Assembly (NCBI GenBank): GCA_048939465.1
Contig: JBHLPL010000009.1
Span: 308-32,307 of the forward strand
Length of the DNA stretch: 32,000 nt
Source of the DNA: Promethearchaeota archaeon
GTDB lineage: Archaea > Asgardarchaeota > Odinarchaeia > Odinarchaeales > JBHLKK01
Direction: 5' to 3'
The position numbers and the translations under genes were made by a program. Shown one piece after another: positions 1,467 to 31,617 of this stretch; the stretch's first letter is position 1, and every line of letters begins with the position of its first letter. A model generated the notes under the pieces. The model ran no database searches. It had not been told where the DNA came from and saw only the letters and a program-made list of their open reading frames with translations.

Positions 1467-1770
1467 ATGGATGAGGAAGCGGACGAGAAGGTAAATCAAG
1501 CAATGACAGTATTAGGCATGATAGCTGAAGATACCTCTGTCCCCAGAAACATCAGACGTGCAGCAAATGAGGCTACTGATGCACTTCAAGACTCCAAGAT
1601 TGAAAGTATGGCTGTGAGGGCATCAAATGCGATATCGATTCTCGACGAGGTATCTCAAGATCCAATCCGTTAAGAGTGTCCTCTTGGCGGGGATAAACTG
1701 CCCCTTACACGCCAGAACAAAAATATGGAATGTAGTGAGCATACTTGAAACCGTCAAAGACTATGAATAG
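1467..1770 (+). CDS. UPF0147 family protein, intron-containing: join(1467..1665,1697..1770), 90 aa
   Basis: Exon 1 has EDTSVPRNIRRAA...RASNAISILDEVSQDP. The unspliced frame stops at TAA 1671. Removing 1666-1696 gives [26 protein letters not shown], the expected family C-terminus. SD-like GAGGT upstream. Confidence 0.9.
1666..1696 (+). other. 31-nt BHB intron in UPF0147 mRNA
   Basis: Central helix ATCC(1660-63)/GGAT(1691-94); 3-nt bulges AAT(1664-66) and AAA(1695-97); intron stem CCGTTAAGAG/CTCTTGGCGG (10 bp, 2 GU) with TGTC loop. Cutting after the 2nd nt of each bulge restores the frame. Confidence 0.88.
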
Positions 1771-1970
1771 CCTTGAGAAATTCAGCTCCTCTCTATTTAA
1801 TACTACCTGAGATTTCTTTTATTCCTTCTTGTTTCATATCAATAGTCCAGGATTTCACTATCAAGTAGCTGGACTTCGCACCGCGGAATCAATTTCACTT
1901 CAGAAGAATTACCTGATTCCGAGAAAAGAATTAATAAATGGCTAATTAGAAAGTACTCTCGGAATGCTGT

Positions 1971-2152
1971 GCCGGGGTAGCCAAGTGGTCTACGGCGCTG
2001 GCCTCGAGAGCAGCTAACATAAAAGGAAGAATACATAAAAGACAACGGAAATCCTTTGGGACAGATTGAACAAGAAAGTCAGTGACGCAGTAGCGTCTCG
2101 CGGGTTCGAATCGGCGCTACATTACGCCGCGAGAATCCTGCCCCCGGCGCCA
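1971..2152 (+). tRNA. tRNA-Ser(CGA) with two introns (37/38: 2009-2076, 68 nt; 59/60: 2111-2135, 25 nt), CCA encoded
   Basis: Acceptor GCCGGGG/CCCCGGC; D arm GCC/GGC; anticodon stem CTGGC/GTCAG with CT-CGA-GA; long variable arm GACGC-AGTA-GCGTC; T arm GCGGG-TTCGAAT-CCTGC after removing a well-formed BHB intron (H TTCG/CGAG with one GU, bulges AAT/AAT, stem CGGCG/CGCCG). Confidence 0.93.
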
Positions 2153-2231
2153 CTTAATACAACCCATGTTACCGATCAATTAGTGCATCAATCAACACGA
2201 GTCGGGATTGGAGGGTTGGTGTTGAGGCTGT

Positions 2232-2547
2232 GTAGACTGCCCCCCGCTTTCGCAGGGAGCCTTCCATCAGAGGTTGAGTATGGTGCACCGCACCACGCAA
2301 CCCCACCGTCAACAGGACGAAAGAGCCTGCCTACAGGGACTCCAGCTCTGGTAAACTGGGAAAAGACGTTGTACCCTCGAACTTCCCGCACCTTATCTCA
2401 TCAATCCCCCCCGCGGGTCATTAACCGTTTCCACATGGGAGAAAAGCGTGCCTTTAGCCCTATTCGAATATATTGCAAGAATGTAGAATGTACTTGGAGA
2501 CGGTTCAATCACTCTCCGCCCTTCCGGACGGAGTTTCCTTGAGGTGG
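2232..2547. repeat. por-associated ~300-nt element, copy C (upstream of porG; most diverged)
   Basis: Begins GTAGACTGCCCC like copy B; shares GGTC...ACCGTTTCC...GCCTTTAG and the terminal hairpin + CTTGAGGTGGTTCA with copy A. Confidence 0.7.
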
Positions 2548-2552
2548 TTCAG

Positions 2553-3113
2553 GTGTATGAAATTCGCTGGCATGGTCGAGGAGGACAAGGTGCAGTAACA
2601 GCATCCTATGTTCTCGTAGATGCCGCATATAGAGACGGCTATGAAGGCGTTCAGTCTTTTCCTTTTTTCGGTGCTGAGAGGAGAGGGGCACCAGTTAAAG
2701 CGTTTACTAGAATTTCAAAGACGATGATATATTCCCGCTGCCAAATTTATGAGCCTGATGCGATCATAGTTTTGGATCCTACTTTGCTGGATATTGTCGA
2801 TGTTACGGAAGGATTGAAAAGAGGCGGAGTCATTGTAGCCAATGCAAATGAGGTTCCAAAGAAATGGAGAAACAAGAATTGGAAGATATACATAGTTGAT
2901 GCTACTGCAATAGCGCTAGAAGTCGGCTTGATCGTAGCGGGATCCCCTGTATTAAACACGCCGATGCTGGGCGCATTTGCTAAAGCAACGGGATTAGTAA
3001 GGCTGGAGAGAATCAAGGAAGCGATAAGCAATAAGTGGAAAGGCAAGGCCGGAGAAAGAAATATAAAAGCGGCAGAATTAGCATATGAACAGTGTAAATT
3101 GGTAGTATCTTAG
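2553..3113 (+). CDS. porG: 2-oxoacid (pyruvate-type):ferredoxin oxidoreductase gamma subunit
   Basis: YEIRWHGRGGQGAVTAS...FPFFGAERRGAPV motif; GTG start at 2553 after SD GAGGTG (2541-46). Confidence 0.93.
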   Translation: MYEIRWHGRGGQGAVTASYVLVDAAYRDGYEGVQSFPFFGAERRGAPVKAFTRISKTMIYSRCQIYEPDAIIVLDPTLLDIVDVTEGLKRGGVIVANANEVPKKWRNKNWKIYIVDATAIALEVGLIVAGSPVLNTPMLGAFAKATGLVRLERIKEAISNKWKGKAGERNIKAAELAYEQCKLVVS

Positions 3114-3129
3114 GCTAGGGGGACTTATT

Positions 3130-3462
3130 CTGAATTCTGGAACTCGGCAAAAGAGTCTGGTTCTTGGAAAGACTGCTAAGACCAAGAAAAAGAAAGCAGG
3201 AATTAGACCTGACGCAATACCTTTATCAAAGCCTGGCAGGGGATCTTACGGCAGAACCGGAGATTGGAGAACCTTCAAGCCGGTAATGGATAAAGAAAAA
3301 TGCAACAAATGTATGCTCTGTTGGCTTTATTGTCCAGAAGGAGTAATAGATCAAGGGAAAGAAGGATATCCGAAAATCGATTATATGTATTGTAAAGGTT
3401 GTGGCATTTGTGCTCAAGAATGCCCATCCAAGTGCATAGAAATGGTGAGAGAGGAAAAGTAA
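3130..3462 (+). CDS. porD: Oxidoreductase delta subunit (2x[4Fe-4S] ferredoxin-like); start codon uncertain; not in the ORF track
   Basis: Translates ...TGDWRTFKPVMDKEKCNKCMLCWLYCPEG...DYMYCKGCGICAQECP...EEK*. Frame is open from 3106 but has no ATG/GTG/TTG before the conserved core; CTG 3130 follows a GGGGG SD-like run. Confidence 0.85.
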   Translation: MNSGTRQKSLVLGKTAKTKKKKAGIRPDAIPLSKPGRGSYGRTGDWRTFKPVMDKEKCNKCMLCWLYCPEGVIDQGKEGYPKIDYMYCKGCGICAQECPSKCIEMVREEK

Positions 3463-3753
3463 ACTATTCCTCTCCTGTCGAAGGAGCTTATGACTATGCT
3501 AGACCTCAATTCCCGAGCGGGCTTTGGTTCCGGTACACGCCAAATCAGGGGGCAGTTTACATCGTCCCAGCCCACTAGTCCCCATATAACGTCGGGGTTT
3601 ATAGTTTATTTCACACATCTTCCCCACAGGTCGGTGACCGTTTCCGCGTCAGAGAGGGGTGCGCCTTTAGATATTTCAGCAAATATATAACAAACGTATT
3701 TGAAGGCCACTAAATTCCTCTCCTCCCTTTCGGACGGATTCTCCTTGAGGTGG
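3459..3753. repeat. por-associated ~300-nt element, copy A (porD-porA spacer)
   Basis: Shares AAGGAG(C/T)TTATGACTATG, GCCAAATCAGGGG, CGTCCCAGCCCA, AACGTATTT and TGAGGTGGTT with copy B; collinear. Confidence 0.85.
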
Positions 3754-3758
3754 TTCAA

Positions 3759-4970
3759 ATGAAAACACAGATTATGACGGGAAATACGGCTGCAGCGTAT
3801 GCTGCCAAATATGCGAGAGCACAAGTTATCGCTGCTTATCCCATAACACCACAAACCACAATCGTAGAAGCGATAGCGAGTCTCATAGATGAAGGTGAAA
3901 TGGAAGCAGAATACATTCGTGTCGAGAGTGAACACAGTGCTATGGCAGCTTGCATTGGTGCTGCCGCTACTGGAGCCAGAGCATTTACTGCAACATCATC
4001 CCATGGCCTTACTTTGATGCATGAAATGCTTCATTGGGCTAGCGGATCTAGGTTGCCCATTGTTATGGCAAATGTCAATCGAGCCATGGGACCGCCGTGG
4101 AATATATGGCCCGATCACAATGATAGCATATCACAAAGAGATGTTGGATGGATACAATTCTATGTCGAAAACAATCAAGAGGTATTCGATACGATCTTAC
4201 AGTGCTACCGGATTTCTGAAAACCAAGAAGTTCTGTTGCCCTCCATGGTGAACCTCGACGGCTTTATTATTTCTCACACCTCTGCCCCGCTAAGCTTACC
4301 TGGTCAAGAAGAGGTCGATGAATTCATACCGGACTATAACCCAAATCCGGAGAAACAACTTGTCATGGATACTCACAAACCAGTGACACATGGCAACATC
4401 ATTATGGTTAACAGTCCAGACGATTGGTATTATGAGTATCGTTATATGATTCACGAAGCTATGATGAACGCCAAGAAGGTCATTCAAGAAGTTGTAGAGG
4501 AGTTTCACAGAAGATTCGGTAGGTCACACGGGGGATTGGTTGAAGAGTATAAATGTAAAGATGCAAACCTGATTTTAGTATCCATGGGAACTATTGCAAG
4601 CCAGGCTAAAGCCGCTATCGATGAGTTGAGACAGGAAGGATACAAAGTGGGAGCTCTCAAGCTAAGGGTTTTTAGACCATTTCCTAGGGAGGAGTTCCAA
4701 AGACTGGCAGATAGAGTCGAAGCCCTTGCGGTGATAGACAGGAACATATCTTTTGGAATGGGGGGTGCAGCTTCCGCAGAGATTAAGGCTGCATTATACA
4801 ATCACAAGAAACACCCATTAATCTTGGAGAACATCGCAGGAATAGGAGGGAGAGACGTGACATCCTCCGATATTAAAAAGATGGTTCTGGGTGCATTAGA
4901 AGTGCTAGAAACTGGTAAAACAGGAGAGGATATTAATTGGCATGGCCTCCGAGTGGGAGAAATGAAGTAG
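3759..4970 (+). CDS. porA: Oxidoreductase alpha subunit
   Basis: MTGNTAAAYAAK...YPITPQT...ESEHSAM...ATSSHGL...NRAM motifs; ATG 3759 after SD GAGGTG. Confidence 0.95.
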   Translation: MKTQIMTGNTAAAYAAKYARAQVIAAYPITPQTTIVEAIASLIDEGEMEAEYIRVESEHSAMAACIGAAATGARAFTATSSHGLTLMHEMLHWASGSRLPIVMANVNRAMGPPWNIWPDHNDSISQRDVGWIQFYVENNQEVFDTILQCYRISENQEVLLPSMVNLDGFIISHTSAPLSLPGQEEVDEFIPDYNPNPEKQLVMDTHKPVTHGNIIMVNSPDDWYYEYRYMIHEAMMNAKKVIQEVVEEFHRRFGRSHGGLVEEYKCKDANLILVSMGTIASQAKAAIDELRQEGYKVGALKLRVFRPFPREEFQRLADRVEALAVIDRNISFGMGGAASAEIKAALYNHKKHPLILENIAGIGGRDVTSSDIKKMVLGALEVLETGKTGEDINWHGLRVGEMK

Positions 4971-5259
4971 ACTGCCCCTCCGATAAGAAAGGAGTTTATG
5001 ACTATGTTTGACTACAATTTCTTCAGGGGGTCCGGTTGCATCACATGCCAAATCAGGGGACGGTTTATAGCGTCCCAGCCCAGTGACCCGCACACAGCGT
5101 CGAGGTATGTAGTCTCTTTCACCCATGCTCCTCATCCGTTATTAGCCGCTTCCTCCCTCCGAGAGCGTACCTCTGAATCCATTAGCACGGTTGAAACGAA
5201 CGTATTTAAGGACCGCCCAATTGATCCCTTACTTTTCGGAAAGAAACTTCGTGAGGTGG
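4967..5259. repeat. por-associated ~300-nt element, copy B (porA-porB spacer)
   Basis: Collinear homology with copy A; like copy A it starts at the upstream gene's stop codon (AAG TAG ACT vs AAG TAA ACT). Confidence 0.85.
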
Positions 5260-5263
5260 TTTG

Positions 5264-6169
5264 ATGAACTCAATATTAGGACTTCCGAGGAAGGAACTCG
5301 TGTATAAGGGAAATAGCGCGTGTATGGGTTGTAGCGCTGTATTGGCAATGAGACATGTGTTAAAAGCTCTAGGTGAGCAAACTGTCATGATCATACCGGC
5401 AGGCTGTAGCACAATAATTCAGGGTCTCTATCCAAAAACTGCTATTGGCGTTCCTCTGCTCAACATCGCTTTCGAGGCTGCTGCAGCTGCGGCCTCCGGC
5501 ATTACAGCAGGATTTAGAGCTCAAGGAAAGAAGGACATTACTGTGGTAGCGTGGGCAGGAGATGGAGGGACATTTGATATTGGACTTCAGGCATTAAGTG
5601 GTGCGGCAGAACGTCAGACGAATATGATTTACATATGTTATGACAACGAGGCATACATGAATACGGGAATTCAACGTAGCGGCGCAACCCCCTACGGAGC
5701 CATAACGACCACGACGCCGGGAGGAAAGAGACTACCTAAAAAGGACCTTGATGCGATTGTCTTGGCTCACGACGTACCTTATTTGGCAACTGCCAACATA
5801 GGATACCCACAGGACCTCTATAGGAAAGTCAAAAAAGCGAAAGAAAAGGAAGGATTCAGATTCATCCACATACTAAGTCCTTGCCCCCCAGGATGGAGGT
5901 TTGATTCAAGTCTTACAGTCACCCTGGCGAAGTTGGCGGTTCAGACTGGCATATGGGTACTGTTTGAGGTGGAAGACGGCAAATTCAGACTTTCAGGACC
6001 AAGCAAGAGACTGCTGGACCCGAATAAAAGAAAGCCTGTCGAAGATTATCTGAAGCTTCAGGGAAGATTCTCAGAGCTCACAGGTGAGGATGTGAAAGAG
6101 ATAAATAGAGAGATCGTGGAAAACTGGCAAGAAATAAACAGAAAAGTCTCTCGAGCAGAAGGAGTGTAG
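5264..6169 (+). CDS. porB: Oxidoreductase beta subunit (TPP-binding)
   Basis: ACMGC, AGC, GDGG...DIGLQALSG...YDNEAYMNTGIQRS TPP-binding motif, CPPGW. Confidence 0.95.
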   Translation: MNSILGLPRKELVYKGNSACMGCSAVLAMRHVLKALGEQTVMIIPAGCSTIIQGLYPKTAIGVPLLNIAFEAAAAAASGITAGFRAQGKKDITVVAWAGDGGTFDIGLQALSGAAERQTNMIYICYDNEAYMNTGIQRSGATPYGAITTTTPGGKRLPKKDLDAIVLAHDVPYLATANIGYPQDLYRKVKKAKEKEGFRFIHILSPCPPGWRFDSSLTVTLAKLAVQTGIWVLFEVEDGKFRLSGPSKRLLDPNKRKPVEDYLKLQGRFSELTGEDVKEINREIVENWQEINRKVSRAEGV

Positions 6170-6381
6170 AAAGAGATTCAGAGACGAAATGATATACTAC
6201 GTTATAGGACAAAGTAAGATGTTGTATGCCGACGTATTACGTTCTACGATTGCAGGAGGAGTACTGAGGGGTATTGGTTTCTTTACGCAAGATTTTTAAG
6301 AAGATACAATAAATAAGAATCACCTCTTTAGAGGTTTTCAACTTCAAGTATAAAATCAGAGCCAAAATGGGGTGAAGTCTA

Positions 6382-6684
6382 ATGACAGAGAACACAATCT
6401 TTGTTGGAAACAAACCAGTTATGAACTATGTTTTGGCATGCGTAACTCAGCTGAATCAAACCGACATGGAAGAAATAGTCATTAAAGCAAGAGGACGGGC
6501 GATTAGTCGCGCAGTTGATGTTGCAGAGATACTCAGAAATCGATTCATGACCAATGTTGACGTAAAAGACATAAAGATCAGCACTGAGCAAATTAATACC
6601 GCAGAGGGCGGAACAGCAAACGTCAGTGCAGTCGAGATCTCGCTGGGTATGAAAGCTGCCAAACCTAGTAAAAAGAAGAAGTAG
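6382..6684 (+). CDS. albA: DNA/RNA-binding protein Alba
   Basis: [12 protein letters not shown]...[16 protein letters not shown] signature; Lys-rich C-terminal tail. Confidence 0.96.
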
Positions 6685-6709
6685 AAATACCTTCTAAGGC
6701 AAAGGGAAC

Positions 6710-6729
6710 TCTTTTTTCTTTTTCTTTTT
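6710..6729 (+). terminator. Oligo-T archaeal terminator-like tract after alba
   Basis: TCTTTTTTCTTTTTCTTTTT ~25 nt downstream of the stop, in the gap between convergent genes. Confidence 0.5.
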
Positions 6730-6775
6730 AGTTGTATGACCTTTCAACACAAATATGAAGACGATGGGAATTTTG

Positions 6776-7336
6776 TTACCCAAGAACGTATCCAATTTGT
6801 TTGACAAGTTCACGACGTTCTTTGCGTTGATCGTCTGTTTCTATTCTTTTCACAGATTGTCCGTCCACAAAGCCCAATACTGCACGGCCTTCCACACCAT
6901 TGATGCCCACTTCTGCGACTATTACCTTGCAGCGATTCGCAGTTGCGCCGTAGACTATCGCGACATGTGGTAATAGCTTGATACTATTTAGAACATTAAT
7001 CGGCCATGCTCCCTGAATCATGATTACAAATACATGACTTGCCCCGATATTTCTGCAGTTTTCAGCCGTCAATTGCTCTAGTTCGGGGTCGTTACTATTG
7101 ACACGGGTAAGTCTGGGATCTGCTTCATTCATTGCACAAGCAAACTTCACATCACCAGTAGTTACTCCCGGAACTGACATCTGAATGGTCCGGAAGAGGT
7201 CGTCAACAAGTTTTACTGAGAAATTGGGGTCCCTCTACCTCTTGTATTGATCTTAAAGGGATTTCCCCTGTCCGACAATTATCTGATGCTCGGGTTCCTT
7301 CTTAATGTCTATTGAAATGAGTTTTATTTCGCTCAA
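6776..7336 (-). CDS. Adenosine-specific kinase family (DUF355-like) protein, intron-containing: complement(join(6776..7223,7263..7336)), 173 aa
   Basis: SD AAGGAGG then TTG 7336: MSEIKLISIDIKKEPEHQIIVGQG|NFSVKLVDDLFRTIQMSVPG...NEADPRL...GAWPINVLNSIK...ATAN...GRAVLGFVDG...RRELVKQIGY. The ORF track captures only the exon 2 part. Confidence 0.88.
7224..7262 (-). other. 39-nt BHB intron in adenosine-specific kinase family mRNA
   Basis: Minus strand: helix GGGG/CCCC, bulges AAA and AAT, intron stem TCCCTTTA/TAGAGGGA (8 bp, 1 GU). Contains in-frame TAA and TAG; splicing yields GQGNFS. Confidence 0.9.
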
Positions 7337-7501
7337 CTCTTGACCTCCTTTTCAATATCATGGATTAAGACATTATTTCAATCAGACTGTAATAAATCCT
7401 TTTGAAATCCTTTTTATCTAGGTAAACCTTTTTCCCTAATATTCAGATGAATGAGGAGACTGATTGCATTCATAAGTGCCAAAAAAGAATATAAGAAGGA
7501 A

Positions 7502-17588: not shown

Positions 17589-18137
17589 TAGTAAAGCCCT
17601 CCCAGACCCACCAAAAATGAAGTTGAAACTCTTAGTGTATTTTTCATTTTTAAGCGGTTTGCTTCTCACTCATAACGAAACGACACGACGACGAACAAAC
17701 ACAATAACGCCGGACATATATGAATTCACACGCGCCAATAACAATTCCACTGTGCTTCAATCCCCTGCCAATCGCCATGTAATTAATAAGCAGATTCACA
17801 CTAGGCGCCAGACCATGTGAACCCCAGTGACGGAGTTGACGATTAAAATGCGGTTTTCGTATGATGGCGCTGAAGAAGGGCAAATTTCATTCTGAAGGCC
17901 GACTAGGTTGCTTTCATTAGAAAAAGACAAAAGATTCGCTCATTAAATTCCAGCAAAACGTTCACACAATGTGTACATGTGAACATCCGATAAGGCCATA
18001 AAGGGGCCATATCCTCAAAAAAGACTTTTTGTCGGAGCTTTGTCGGCCCCCATCGTTCACAGATAAACATAAATAATAAGTTGATAGAGTAGATACAGCA
18101 ATGTTGGCATGACAGCGCCGGATGGGAGAAAGACGCA

Positions 18138-29612: not shown

Positions 29613-30950
29613 TCATCTCCCTCTCTTCCGCTTACTCGCTGTCGACAGTTCCCTCCGTGCCATCTCAATGTTGGTAGTTTCTTGCACTTCAGTCTTCAAA
29701 TTCTTTATTGTGATTTCTCCCCTCTCCATTTCTCGCTTGCCCACTATAATCGCATAATCGTAATTACTGCTTGAAGCAAAGGAAAGACTTTTCTTGAGGG
29801 TTCTATGCATCAGCTCCAATTCACACGGTATATTCCGTCTTCTTAGCTCCTGTGCAACTCTTGCTGCGTATGAATAGAGGTCTTCAGATGCCGCCACTAC
29901 GAGTATCCTATTCATCCTCCAGAGGTCGGTAAATAGCTCTTCTTTTTCCATTGCCAGAGCTATTCTATCTAACCCAGGAGAGAAACCTACCGCCGGAGTC
30001 GGGGTTCCTCCAAAAAGTTCTACAAGCTTATCGTACCTACCCCCACCCCCAATTGCTATCGGTAGTTTCCTGTTAAATATCTCAAAGATCATTCCAGTAT
30101 AGTATTCGAGTCCCCTGGCTAGACTGAGATCCAATTGTATTCTCTCTGTTATTCCCTGTGCCTTCGCTATTTCAACTATCTGATCCAGATTCCTCATAGC
30201 TCCTTTCGCTTTGGAATAACCTTCGACAATTCTGCGGGCATCCTCAACCCCTTTTTCAAGATCTTCGACTTTAATTTCCAGCAAGCGCCTTATTGCTTCC
30301 AGGCATTTTTCTGATGCACCACGGTTGCTCAATAACCGGAACACTTCTGTCGTTTTGCCTGAATCAATCATTCCCAGTATTTCGTCCTGATACCCTTCTT
30401 CAACACCTTCTTGTTCTAGGATACTGCGAATAATACCGACATGTCCTAATCGCAGTTCAAACTGTCCAAAACCAAGTGATGTCATCATATCATAAGCTAT
30501 GGCTAATATCTCGGCATCGGCTTCTGGATTTGGTGAACCAAAGATCTCGAAACCTCCCTGCCAGAATTCTCGATAACGACCCATCTGAGGTTCATCGTAT
30601 CTGAAGCACTGTCCTATGTAGCCCAGCTTAACCGGCTTTGGCACCGCTTTCATTAAAGAATCGATAAACAACCTCGTAACAGAAGGAGTCATCTCCGGTC
30701 TCAGTGCGACGGTTCTTCCACCCTTGTCCTCAAAAACGTACATTCTTTTTCTAATATCCTCTCCAGCTTTCATTGCTAATAATTCAAAATTCTCCACTAT
30801 TGGCATCGAGACTTCACCGTAACCGTATTTTTCGAAGAGGTCTCTAACAACATCAATTACACGATCTAGCTTTGCTTTGTCTTCCGGCAAGAAGTCTCTC
30901 ATTCCACGAACAGTCTTTATTATCTTGGGCAAGGGATTTCGCCTGCTCAT
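29613..30950 (-). CDS. hisS: Histidine--tRNA ligase (start uncertain, 30932-30962)
   Basis: VRGMRDFLP, LRPEMT, FRYDEPQMGRYREFWQ, RGLEYYTG, GGGRYD.L. Confidence 0.96.
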   Translation of the reverse strand: MSRRNPLPKIIKTVRGMRDFLPEDKAKLDRVIDVVRDLFEKYGYGEVSMPIVENFELLAMKAGEDIRKRMYVFEDKGGRTVALRPEMTPSVTRLFIDSLMKAVPKPVKLGYIGQCFRYDEPQMGRYREFWQGGFEIFGSPNPEADAEILAIAYDMMTSLGFGQFELRLGHVGIIRSILEQEGVEEGYQDEILGMIDSGKTTEVFRLLSNRGASEKCLEAIRRLLEIKVEDLEKGVEDARRIVEGYSKAKGAMRNLDQIVEIAKAQGITERIQLDLSLARGLEYYTGMIFEIFNRKLPIAIGGGGRYDKLVELFGGTPTPAVGFSPGLDRIALAMEKEELFTDLWRMNRILVVAASEDLYSYAARVAQELRRRNIPCELELMHRTLKKSLSFASSSNYDYAIIVGKREMERGEITIKNLKTEVQETTNIEMARRELSTASKRKRGR

Positions 30951-31041
30951 TCGTTGTGACAAATCTAACCAACAGCTGGTTTTTTAACTTATAGATTCAT
31001 CACGATTATTTCTAAGACCCTTTGCGTCCCTTTATCCAACG

Positions 31042-31617
31042 CTAAAGGTTGACTTGCGCTGCAAAATAATATGTCGTTTCTCCTTGTCTATCTACAACAC
31101 CGAGAACGAGCCTTTTCCTAGAACTTGTTGCCGCTTTTATTATCTTCTCCAGGCTTGACAATTCTAAAGGTACTCCTTCAACCACAACATGTATGAGGTA
31201 TTTCGCCACGTCTTCATTCAAAACCGCTCCTCTTTCATAAACCCGAAAATCAACTCCGCTCCCATACCCAAGACGTACTATGTATCCTCTGCTTCGCAGA
31301 TCCCGATACACAAGATATTTCGTCCATATCCTTGGGTCCACTTCTAATGTGCTTTTTAGGATACCCTGGAAGTCAAGCTCCTGTTTATTCTCATCAAAAA
31401 CTCTAAGCCTTCTCCGTTCCATAAGCAGTAGAGCCTCTACTATTTCAAGATTCAGCTTGTCCTCCTCCAGGATGCTTCCATAATAGCCAGCCTCATAAGT
31501 TGATGTTGCCTTTTCACCACTCACAATTACGCTATTGTCAACTAATACGCCTTCAACGATCTCTTCCTCTTCCAACTTTTTCCCCGCCTGAAGGTCTTGT
31601 TTCATCTTTGGAACCAC
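31042..31617 (-). CDS. endA: tRNA-splicing endonuclease subunit (probably structural beta-type)
   Basis: GYYG...L..VEALLL, YLVYRDLRSRGY, G.DFRVY, RKRLVLGVVD...TYY. The catalytic His expected before YL is absent (EDVAKYL). Confidence 0.85.
   Translation of the reverse strand: MVPKMKQDLQAGKKLEEEEIVEGVLVDNSVIVSGEKATSTYEAGYYGSILEEDKLNLEIVEALLLMERRRLRVFDENKQELDFQGILKSTLEVDPRIWTKYLVYRDLRSRGYIVRLGYGSGVDFRVYERGAVLNEDVAKYLIHVVVEGVPLELSSLEKIIKAATSSRKRLVLGVVDRQGETTYYFAAQVNL

What the first reader, a model, noticed from the sequence alone, without database searches (positions are those of the whole stretch)
7224..7262. Second mRNA BHB intron, in an adenosine-specific kinase family gene
Seen: a strong SD and TTG (7336) begin MSEIKL...IIVGQG, followed by 39 nt with two in-frame stops, then NFSVKLVDDL. 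The insert forms GGGG/CCCC + AAA/AAT bulges + an 8-bp stem, and splicing restores GQGNFS, matching the family's GQ(S/G)(H/N)F motif. The intron sequence is unrelated to the UPF0147 intron, so the two look like independent acquisitions.
Basis: partly seen in the sequence, partly recalled or inferred. Interest (0 to 1): 0.9.

Follow-up and report, generated by a model that had tools for sequence, protein, structure and literature searches.

The report
tRNA-type intron inside Asgard protein gene
A small enzyme gene of an Asgard archaeon is interrupted by a 39-base hairpin shaped like the introns archaea cut out of tRNAs; all seven related genomes keep it at the same codon, so its mRNA very probably must be spliced, which published work reports for only one other archaeal coding sequence (cbf5).

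Summary
On the minus strand, a PF04008 (adenosine-specific-kinase family) gene runs TTG 7336 to TAA 6776. A 39-nt insert (7262..7224) with two in-frame stops interrupts it.

- **Fold:** 4-bp helix GGGG/CCCC, 3-nt bulges AAA and AAU, 8-bp inner stem. Only the exon-side helix is weak.
- **Splicing result:** cutting after the second base of each bulge gives a 173-aa protein. It matches Pfam positions 1-153 of 154 (156 bits; exon 2 alone 142 bits, positions 19-153). It aligns without a gap to PH1918 across IIGQGNFS.
- **Conservation:** all 7 species genomes of the class (it includes an Odinarchaeia MAG) carry an insert at this codon, 27-39 nt long; four lengths break the frame. The inner stem covaries at all 8 pairs (84/84 cells paired). 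Over 40 homologues outside the class are uninterrupted.
- **Machinery:** the genome encodes a catalytic EndA subunit, a second EndA paralogue lacking the catalytic His, and RtcB.

No RNA data were available, so splicing is inferred.

This scan found the same gene's intron earlier on another Odinarchaeia genome. UPF0147, kae1 and ahcY in this genome carry similar inserts. In the papers searched, the only coding-sequence precedent is crenarchaeal cbf5.

The parts
7343..7348 (-). Shine-Dalgarno-like GGAGGT, 6 nt upstream of the TTG start
   Evidence: Read from the sequence. The four Odinarchaeum-genus orthologues have ATG at the homologous start position.
7263..7336 (-). Exon 1: TTG start, 24 codons (MSEIKLISIDIKKEPEHQIIVGQG) plus the first two bases (AA) of the split Asn codon
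   Evidence: Adds Pfam profile positions 1-18 and 13.7 bits. pN/pS is 0.23 between the two families, against 0.35 for the rest of the gene. Peptide is 79-92% identical across the class.
7224..7262 (-). 39-nt bulge-helix-bulge intron (equivalently 7225-7263 or 7226-7264), with in-frame TAA 7255-7253 and TAG 7237-7235
   Evidence: Orthologous inserts of 27-39 nt sit at the same codon in 7 of 7 genomes. A 35-nt strain variant appears in an independent metagenome.
7265..7268 (-). Central 4-bp helix, 5' strand GGGG (exon 1: last base of the Gln codon CAG plus the Gly codon GGG)
   Evidence: Pairs with CCCC 7229-7226. Kept in all 7 genomes, with one G-U in G004.
7226..7229 (-). Central 4-bp helix, 3' strand CCCC (intron)
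7262..7264 (-). 5' bulge AAA; predicted cut between 7263 and 7262
   Evidence: AAA in the window's genus, AAU in the Odinarchaeum genus.
7223..7225 (-). 3' bulge AAU; predicted cut between 7224 and 7223
   Evidence: AAU or AUU in relatives. The closing exon helix is weak in this genome.
7230..7261 (-). Intron hairpin: 8-bp stem (7261-7254 with 7237-7230) and 16-nt loop (7253-7238)
   Evidence: All 8 pairs show two-sided changes across the 7 genomes. 84 of 84 cells are paired, against 31-59 of 84 when the partner strand is slid.
6776..7223 (-). Exon 2: third base of the Asn codon, 148 codons (FSVKLVDDL...IGYVLG) and stop TAA 6778-6776
   Evidence: Pfam positions 19-153. The first 14 codons match the family but have no in-frame start before ATG 7180.
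31042..31617 (-). EndA paralogue (191 aa) lacking the catalytic His; probable structural (beta-like) subunit of the splicing endonuclease
   Evidence: PF01974 at 77 bits. In the alignment to M. jannaschii EndA 1a79, the Tyr and Lys are kept and Val sits where His should be. The catalytic partner lies on another contig (L051:1168-1782).

Best explanation
The 39 nt at 7262..7224 (minus strand) are an archaeal bulge-helix-bulge intron inside the coding sequence of the genome's only detected PF04008 (adenosine-specific-kinase family) gene.

Proposed mechanism:
1. The pre-mRNA folds so that exon bases GGGG pair with intron bases CCCC. A 3-nt bulge lies on each strand, and an 8-bp intron hairpin stacks on the inside.
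2. The splicing endonuclease EndA cuts after the second base of each bulge. Here EndA is a catalytic alpha-type subunit plus a second paralogue without the catalytic His.
3. RtcB ligase joins the exons as ...GGG AA|T TTC....
4. The result is a 173-aa protein reading IIVGQG-N-FSVK.

Unspliced mRNA can give only a 27-aa peptide, or a protein starting at Met 7180 that lacks the first 39 residues.

Shown here: the geometry, the exact reading-frame restoration, conservation with covariation across the class, and the presence of the enzymes.

Inferred: that cleavage and ligation actually occur, that EndA and RtcB carry them out, and that the intron was gained once before the two families of the class diverged.
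For: 1. Geometry: 4-bp helix, two 3-nt bulges and an 8-bp inner stem, read from the sequence and present in the MFE fold.

2. Product:
- The canonical cut rule gives a 173-aa protein.
- It matches PF04008 positions 1-153 of 154 at 156.2 bits. Exon 2 alone scores 142.5 bits over 19-153, and the ATG ORF scores 135.6 bits over 34-153.
- It aligns without a gap to PH1918 (PDB 2d16, E = 2.3e-49). PH1918 has N where the split codon AA|T predicts N.

3. Homologues: more than 40 from other Asgard classes, Thermoproteota and Micrarchaeota read straight through G-x-[SGA]-[HN]-F.

4. Conservation:
- All 7 species genomes of the class have an insert at exactly this codon. Lengths are 39, 34, 34, 27, 30, 32 and 31 nt.
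- Four of these lengths are not multiples of three.
- Every one splices to a 173-aa protein.

5. Covariation:
- The inner stem differs completely between the two families (UCCCUUUA/UAGAGGGA against UUUUAAUC/GAUUAAAA), yet 84 of 84 helix cells pair. Slid controls give 31-59 of 84.
- Strain variants in other metagenomes carry compensatory changes (7259 with 7232) and loop deletions of 4 or 5 nt.

6. Selection: exon 1 is under purifying selection, with pN/pS 0.23. The 14 family-matching codons after the insert have no start codon of their own.

7. Machinery:
- Two EndA paralogues. One is most like the A. pernix catalytic subunit and has Tyr, His and Lys intact. The other lacks the catalytic His.
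- Two RtcB genes.
- Only 7 tRNA genes are found without intron search, against 25 with it; 19 of those have introns.

8. The same kind of insert is present in UPF0147, kae1 and ahcY of this genome.
Against: - No RNA evidence: spliced mRNA and the excised intron have not been observed.
- In this genome the exon-exon helix closing the 3' bulge is poor: one A-U pair, then C.U and A.C mismatches. The MFE fold shows a 2x2 internal loop there, so the motif is relaxed rather than strict hBHBh'.
- Folding energy alone is not unusual (z = -1.22).
- A crude genome-wide scan for BHB-like motifs that join ORFs showed no excess over frame-shifted decoys. It has low power, and it says nothing against this locus, which it did recover.
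Confidence: 0.9

Rival explanations
1. No splicing. The hairpin is a regulatory or terminator-like element between a 27-codon leader peptide and a shortened PF04008 protein that starts at ATG 7180.
For: ATG 7180 opens a 134-aa ORF that still scores 135.6 bits against PF04008. Annotation pipelines would call this ORF.
Against: - Exon 1 matches the family's N-terminal strand (profile positions 1-18) and is under purifying selection.
- The 14 codons between the insert and ATG 7180 match profile positions 19-33 and are conserved, but have no start codon.
- The insert keeps exact BHB geometry, and a cut rule restores one frame in 7 genomes with 6 different lengths.
- No terminator-like T-run follows the stem.
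Confidence: 0.04
2. Translational bypassing: the ribosome hops over the hairpin, as in phage T4 gene 60, with no RNA cutting.
For: A stop codon lies shortly after the take-off region, with a stable hairpin in the gap.
Against: - Bypassing needs matching take-off and landing codons.
- In G006, G004 and G003 the landing side reads CCCCAUU UUC or CUCCAUU UUC, with no AAU or AAC to re-pair with.
- The conserved features are those EndA recognises: a 4-bp helix and 3-nt bulges on opposite strands.
- The same motif interrupts this genome's tRNA genes and other protein genes.
Confidence: 0.03
3. Decaying pseudogene or assembly artefact.
For: In-frame stops and frameshifts are what a broken gene looks like. 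The genome is a 152-contig MAG.
Against: - The same interruption is present in 7 species genomes, including a closed 1.418-Mb chromosome.
- Independent metagenome contigs from three studies carry it.
- Both exons are intact and under purifying selection.
- It is the only PF04008 copy detected in the genome.
Confidence: 0.01
4. Another kind of intervening element: a group I or II intron, an intein, or a DNA-level excision element.
For: The genome does hold other intervening elements. One RtcB gene has a probable intein-sized insert.
Against: - At 27-39 nt it is far too short for a ribozyme intron.
- It contains stops or frameshifts, so it cannot be an intein.
- No contig with the insert removed was seen in four DNA runs (weak evidence).
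Confidence: 0.01

Closest known systems
cbf5 pre-mRNA intron of Crenarchaeota (Desulfurococcales and Sulfolobales; Watanabe 2002 as cited in PMC7714728; Yokobori 2009, PMC2738675)
   Same: A short BHB-type intron inside a protein-coding sequence. It is lineage-wide and would be removed by the tRNA splicing endonuclease and ligase. Gene callers mis-annotate the host gene.
   Different: Different host gene (PF04008, not the pseudouridine synthase cbf5). Different lineage (Asgard class containing Odinarchaeia, not Thermoproteota). cbf5 splicing was shown experimentally; here it is inferred. This genome has at least three more protein genes interrupted in the same way (UPF0147, kae1, ahcY).
BHB intron in the 5' UTR of Haloferax volcanii HVO_1309 mRNA (PMC7714728)
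   Same: An EndA substrate located in an mRNA.
   Different: That one lies in the untranslated leader. This one splits a codon, and the protein cannot be made without its removal.
Archaeal tRNA BHB introns at non-canonical positions, abundant in Asgard archaea (PMC11291895; bioRxiv 10.64898/2026.10.13.758758)
   Same: Same motif, same size range (about 20-60 nt), same enzymes. This genome's tRNA genes are themselves mostly interrupted.
   Different: The host is an mRNA, so no tRNA body can help recognition. Only the local BHB is available, and its exon-side helix is weak here.
PH1918 of Pyrococcus horikoshii (PDB 2d16) and PAE2307 (1wvq, 2gl0), solved members of PF04008
   Same: The spliced protein aligns end to end (E = 2.3e-49 and 6.2e-34), including IIGQGNFS across the junction.
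   Different: Those genes are uninterrupted.

Membership tests
Archaeal bulge-helix-bulge (EndA-type) intron | [quoted passage not shown] | tested here: met
   GGGG/CCCC with bulges AAA and AAU. The same layout is found in 7 of 7 orthologues.
Archaeal bulge-helix-bulge (EndA-type) intron | Flanking helices on both sides (strict hBHBh') | tested here: inconclusive
   The inner helix is 8 bp (8-10 bp in relatives). The outer exon helix in this genome is one A-U pair followed by two mismatches. In the Odinarchaeum genus it is 1 + 8 bp around a C.U mismatch. So the motif is relaxed here; by published work (PMC5829648) relaxed forms are cut by two-subunit and epsilon-2 EndAs.
Archaeal bulge-helix-bulge (EndA-type) intron | Cutting after the second bulge base on both sides gives a functional product | tested here: met
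   A 173-aa protein in all 7 genomes. Pfam coverage 1-153 of 154. Gap-free alignment to PH1918 with Asn at the split codon.
Archaeal bulge-helix-bulge (EndA-type) intron | Structure maintained by compensatory change | tested here: met
   All 8 inner pairs change on both sides. 84 of 84 cells are paired, against 31-59 of 84 in slid controls. Strain variants are also compensatory.
Archaeal bulge-helix-bulge (EndA-type) intron | Splicing endonuclease and RtcB ligase encoded by the organism | tested here: met
   Two PF01974 genes, one with Tyr/His/Lys and one without the His. Two PF01139 genes.
Archaeal bulge-helix-bulge (EndA-type) intron | Spliced RNA and excised (circular) intron observed | not testable with these tools
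   No RNA run was listed for this stretch.
PF04008 Adenosine_kin (host gene) | Full-length match above the gathering score | tested here: met
   156.2 bits against a 25-bit cut-off, profile positions 1-153 of 154, only when spliced.
PF04008 Adenosine_kin (host gene) | Adenosine kinase activity | not testable with these tools
   The family name rests on work with PAE2307.
cbf5-type pre-mRNA intron | Located in the cbf5 gene of Crenarchaeota | tested here: not met
   The host is PF04008 in an Asgard genome. It works like the cbf5 intron but is not that intron.
Translational bypass (T4 gene 60 type) | Matching take-off and landing codons | tested here: not met
   There is no AAU or AAC landing codon in G006, G004 or G003.

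The most novel reading that the evidence does not exclude
This intron is one visible piece of a lineage-wide habit. On this reading, Odinarchaeia-class Asgard archaea keep many housekeeping protein genes interrupted by tRNA-type micro-introns. Cases seen here are PF04008, UPF0147, kae1 and ahcY; pyrG, EF-2, a DRG GTPase and others were flagged by other readers. A sizeable part of the proteome would then depend on EndA/RtcB splicing of mRNA before translation. That would be a protein-enzyme-based 'genes in pieces' system in the closest prokaryotic relatives of eukaryotes. It would require some way to keep ribosomes off unspliced mRNA, or to tolerate them on it.
Probability: 0.45. Interest if true: 0.9.

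Novelty: new member of a known kind. Interest (0 to 1): 0.72.

Why it matters
- **Rarity.** In the papers searched, endonuclease-type introns inside archaeal coding sequences are reported only for cbf5 of Crenarchaeota. PMC7714728 says so explicitly and adds one 5'-UTR case. A second host gene in Asgard archaea, kept since before two families diverged, shows that mRNA splicing by the tRNA machinery is neither a one-gene nor a one-phylum curiosity.
- **Annotation.** Gene callers will report this gene as a 134-152-aa N-terminally truncated protein. Four of the seven orthologues would look frameshifted. Gene inventories and metabolic reconstructions of these MAGs are therefore affected.
- **Biology.** It raises testable questions about how archaea, which couple transcription and translation, handle unspliced mRNA. 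It also bears on whether intron-rich Asgard lineages say anything about the ancestry of interrupted genes.

Tried and rejected
- **RNA evidence.** No RNA holder was listed for this stretch, so no junction reads could be sought. Only DNA contigs were laid. They show the insert in DNA from three studies and no insert-free joint.
- **Thermodynamic significance.** Single-sequence folding gives z = -1.22, which is not informative.
- **MAFFT alignment (A1).** It misaligns the 5' stem of the two families. I therefore did not use the pair-counting tool and instead parsed the helices by position in a script.
- **Genome-wide scan.**
  - Filter: 4-bp helix, 3-nt bulges, inner stem of at least 5 bp, length 20-110 nt. 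This gave 23,296 raw motifs.
  - Test: each motif had to join two open frames and to break the unspliced frame. The correct cut passed at about 1,100 loci. Cuts shifted by 1 or 2 nt also passed at about 1,100 loci, so there was no excess.
  - Cause: chance hairpins spanning adjacent same-strand genes swamp the signal, so the scan gives no count of mRNA introns. It recovered this intron, UPF0147, kae1 and one ahcY intron, but missed pyrG.
- **tRNAs in the window.** ARAGORN at default settings and Rfam at gathering thresholds found no tRNA or other known RNA in the window. The two intron-bearing tRNAs that another first-reader note places in 1467-7336 were not confirmed here.
- **NCBIfam.** It has no model matching this protein.
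- **Rejected readings.** Leader peptide plus truncated protein, ribosomal bypass, pseudogene or artefact, ribozyme intron or intein. Reasons are given under the rivals.

Full report
**What is there**

On the minus strand a Shine-Dalgarno-like GGAGGT (7348-7343) precedes TTG 7336. The frame reads MSEIKLISIDIKKEPEHQIIVGQG, then KSL-stop-DQYKR-stop-RDP, and continues as NFSVKLVDDL... to TAA 6778-6776.

The 39 nt at 7262..7224 hold both stops (TAA 7255-7253, TAG 7237-7235). The next in-frame start after them is ATG 7180.

- GGGG (7268-7265, exon) pairs with CCCC (7229-7226, intron).
- A 3-nt bulge AAA (7264-7262) lies on the 5' strand.
- An 8-bp stem pairs 7261-7254 with 7237-7230 around a 16-nt loop.
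- A 3-nt AAU (7225-7223) lies on the 3' strand.

This is the layout of a tRNA intron: an exon/intron central helix, the 5' bulge on the inside and the 3' bulge on the outside.

Cutting after the second base of each bulge removes 39 nt and joins GGG AA|T TTC, giving GQG-N-FS. The bulges share A's, so two neighbouring placements of the 39 nt give the same product.

The weak point is the exon-exon helix that should close the 3' bulge. It has A7269-U7222, then C.U and A.C mismatches. The MFE fold draws a 2x2 loop followed by GGA/UUU instead. Folding energy alone is unremarkable (z = -1.22).

**Does splicing restore a real protein?**

Yes.
- The spliced 173-aa product (read with X at the junction) matches PF04008 Adenosine_kin over profile positions 1-153 of 154 at 156.2 bits.
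- Exon 2 alone covers positions 19-153 at 142.5 bits. The ATG-7180 ORF covers 34-153 at 135.6 bits.
- Against solved structures, the product aligns without a gap to P. horikoshii PH1918 (2d16, E = 2.3e-49). The junction falls in vIIGQGNFSi, and PH1918 has the Asn that the split codon AA|T predicts.
- More than 40 homologues fetched from other Asgard classes, Thermoproteota and Micrarchaeota read straight through G-x-[S/G/A]-[H/N]-F. The nearest uninterrupted Asgard homologue reads GGC CAG GGA AAT TTT at the site.
- This is the only PF04008 copy detected in the 91%-complete genome.

**Comparative evidence**

The genome's class in the collection holds 7 species genomes in two families.
- One family holds the window's genus. 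A sister MAG in it is titled 'Candidatus Hodarchaeota archaeon DZ1B.307'.
- The other family includes 'Candidatus Odinarchaeia archaeon RPA3' and a closed 1,418,269-bp chromosome.
- Both names fall under Promethearchaeati, the Asgard archaea.

All 7 genomes carry an insert at exactly this codon. The lengths are 39, 34, 34, 27, 30, 32 and 31 nt, and all 7 splice by the same rule to a 173-aa protein. Four lengths are not multiples of three, so those genes are frameshifted unless spliced.

The central helix and both bulges are kept: AAA or AAU on the 5' side, AAU or AUU on the 3' side.

The inner stem is 8-10 bp everywhere but has unrelated sequence in the two families (UCCCUUUA/UAGAGGGA against UUUUAAUC/GAUUAAAA).
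- Each of its 8 pairs shows a two-sided change.
- 84 of 84 helix cells are standard pairs. When the 3' partner is slid by 1-3 nt, only 31-59 of 84 pair.

Contigs of related strains in other metagenomes add more variants:
- a 35-nt and a 34-nt form, from loop deletions;
- a compensatory C7259-G7232 to U-A change;
- no insert-free DNA form.

Exon 1 evolves like coding sequence: pN/pS is 0.23 between the families, against 0.35 for the rest of the gene.

**Machinery**

- The genome has two PF01974 genes.
  - The one on contig C90 is most similar to the catalytic subunit of the A. pernix two-subunit EndA (3p1z_B, E = 1.5e-44). It keeps the catalytic His, aligned to the His that is Ala in the 3ajv mutant entry, and its alignment runs gap-free through the N-terminal region of that subunit. 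The Tyr in VYEHG and the Lys in VRKKF, which I identify as catalytic from my knowledge of the M. jannaschii enzyme, are also present.
  - The other lies in this window (31042..31617, minus strand). It has Val where the His should be.
- This fits a two-subunit enzyme. Published work (PMC5829648) describes that type as accepting non-canonical motifs, which would suit the weak outer helix here. The subunit assignment is my inference.
- Two RtcB genes are present.
- The organism leans heavily on this pathway. ARAGORN finds 7 tRNA genes without intron search and 25 with it, 19 of them interrupted.

**Context in this genome**

- UPF0147, in this window, is split in the same way. Pfam positions 2-61 and 61-81 lie in different frames. 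The sequence shows ATCC.AAU.[10-bp stem].GGAU.AAA, a 31-nt insert at 1666-1696 whose removal gives DP-N-CPLHART. It is interrupted in all 7 genomes too.
- kae1 is split at GPG|LGPCLR by a 25-nt insert with an 8-bp outer helix.
- ahcY has a 32-nt insert restoring KWDFD|NIYGTGQS, plus further breaks.
- pyrG starts at profile position 14. I did not examine it further.
- My attempt to count such introns genome-wide failed for lack of power.

**Earlier notes of this scan**

The scan had already followed up the same gene's 31-nt intron on another Odinarchaeia genome and reached the same reading. It also holds many first-reader notes on mRNA introns in this genome. I treated these as leads and tested the ones named above.

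**Literature**

In the library searched, the only BHB intron reported inside an archaeal coding sequence is in cbf5 of Crenarchaeota (PMC2738675). PMC7714728 states this and adds a 5'-UTR case in Haloferax.

Asgard papers report abundant tRNA introns but not mRNA introns (PMC11291895; bioRxiv 10.64898/2026.10.13.758758). The library is incomplete, so 'unreported' means 'not found there'.

**Verdict**

This is a genuine, anciently conserved BHB intron in an Asgard protein-coding gene (confidence 0.9). Splicing itself is inferred, not observed. It is a new member of a known but very small kind. It is probably part of a wider pattern in this lineage.

Noticed in passing
window 1666-1696 (+), gene 1468-1770: The UPF0147 (PF03685) gene is split by a 31-nt canonical BHB insert: ATCC.AAU, a 10-bp stem, then GGAU.AAA. 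Removal gives ...SQDP-N-CPLHART. The gene is interrupted at the same profile position in all 7 genomes of the class; the four Odinarchaeum-genus genomes have an in-frame insert of about 30 nt with one stop.
   Followed up: yes
window 31042-31617 (-); L051:1168-1782 (+): There are two EndA paralogues. The in-window one lacks the catalytic His and sits next to a 449-aa ORF that reads like a histidyl-tRNA synthetase (29613-30962; named by eye, not searched). The other, on contig C90, resembles the A. pernix catalytic subunit and keeps Tyr/His/Lys. Together they suggest a two-subunit endonuclease.
   Followed up: partly
G000 contig C69, 30130-30154 (-): kae1/tsaD is split at GPG|LGPCLR by a 25-nt BHB insert with an 8-bp outer helix. 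The Pfam TsaD match is broken at profile positions 62/64.
   Followed up: partly
G000 contig C118, 346-377 (-) and neighbourhood: The S-adenosylhomocysteine hydrolase gene is broken several times. One 32-nt BHB insert restores KWDFD|NIYGTGQS. The gene also runs off the contig end.
   Followed up: partly
G000 contig C31, 2961-5708 (-): One of the two RtcB genes lies in a 973-aa open frame. RtcB profile positions 1-57 and 45-426 are about 1.4 kb apart, which looks like an intein-sized in-frame insertion.
   Followed up: no
whole genome G000: ARAGORN finds only 7 tRNA genes without intron search and 25 with it, 19 of them interrupted, in a 91%-complete genome. Most tRNA genes therefore seem to carry introns, and some are probably still undetected.
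   Followed up: partly
window 1-32000: Neither ARAGORN at default settings nor Rfam at gathering thresholds reports any RNA gene in the window. Another first-reader note claims two intron-bearing tRNAs within 1467-7336.
   Followed up: partly
G000 contig C116, about 17804-17840 (-): The pyrG match starts only at CTP_synth_N profile position 14, consistent with a short upstream exon as another reader proposed. My strict BHB filter found no motif there.
   Followed up: partly
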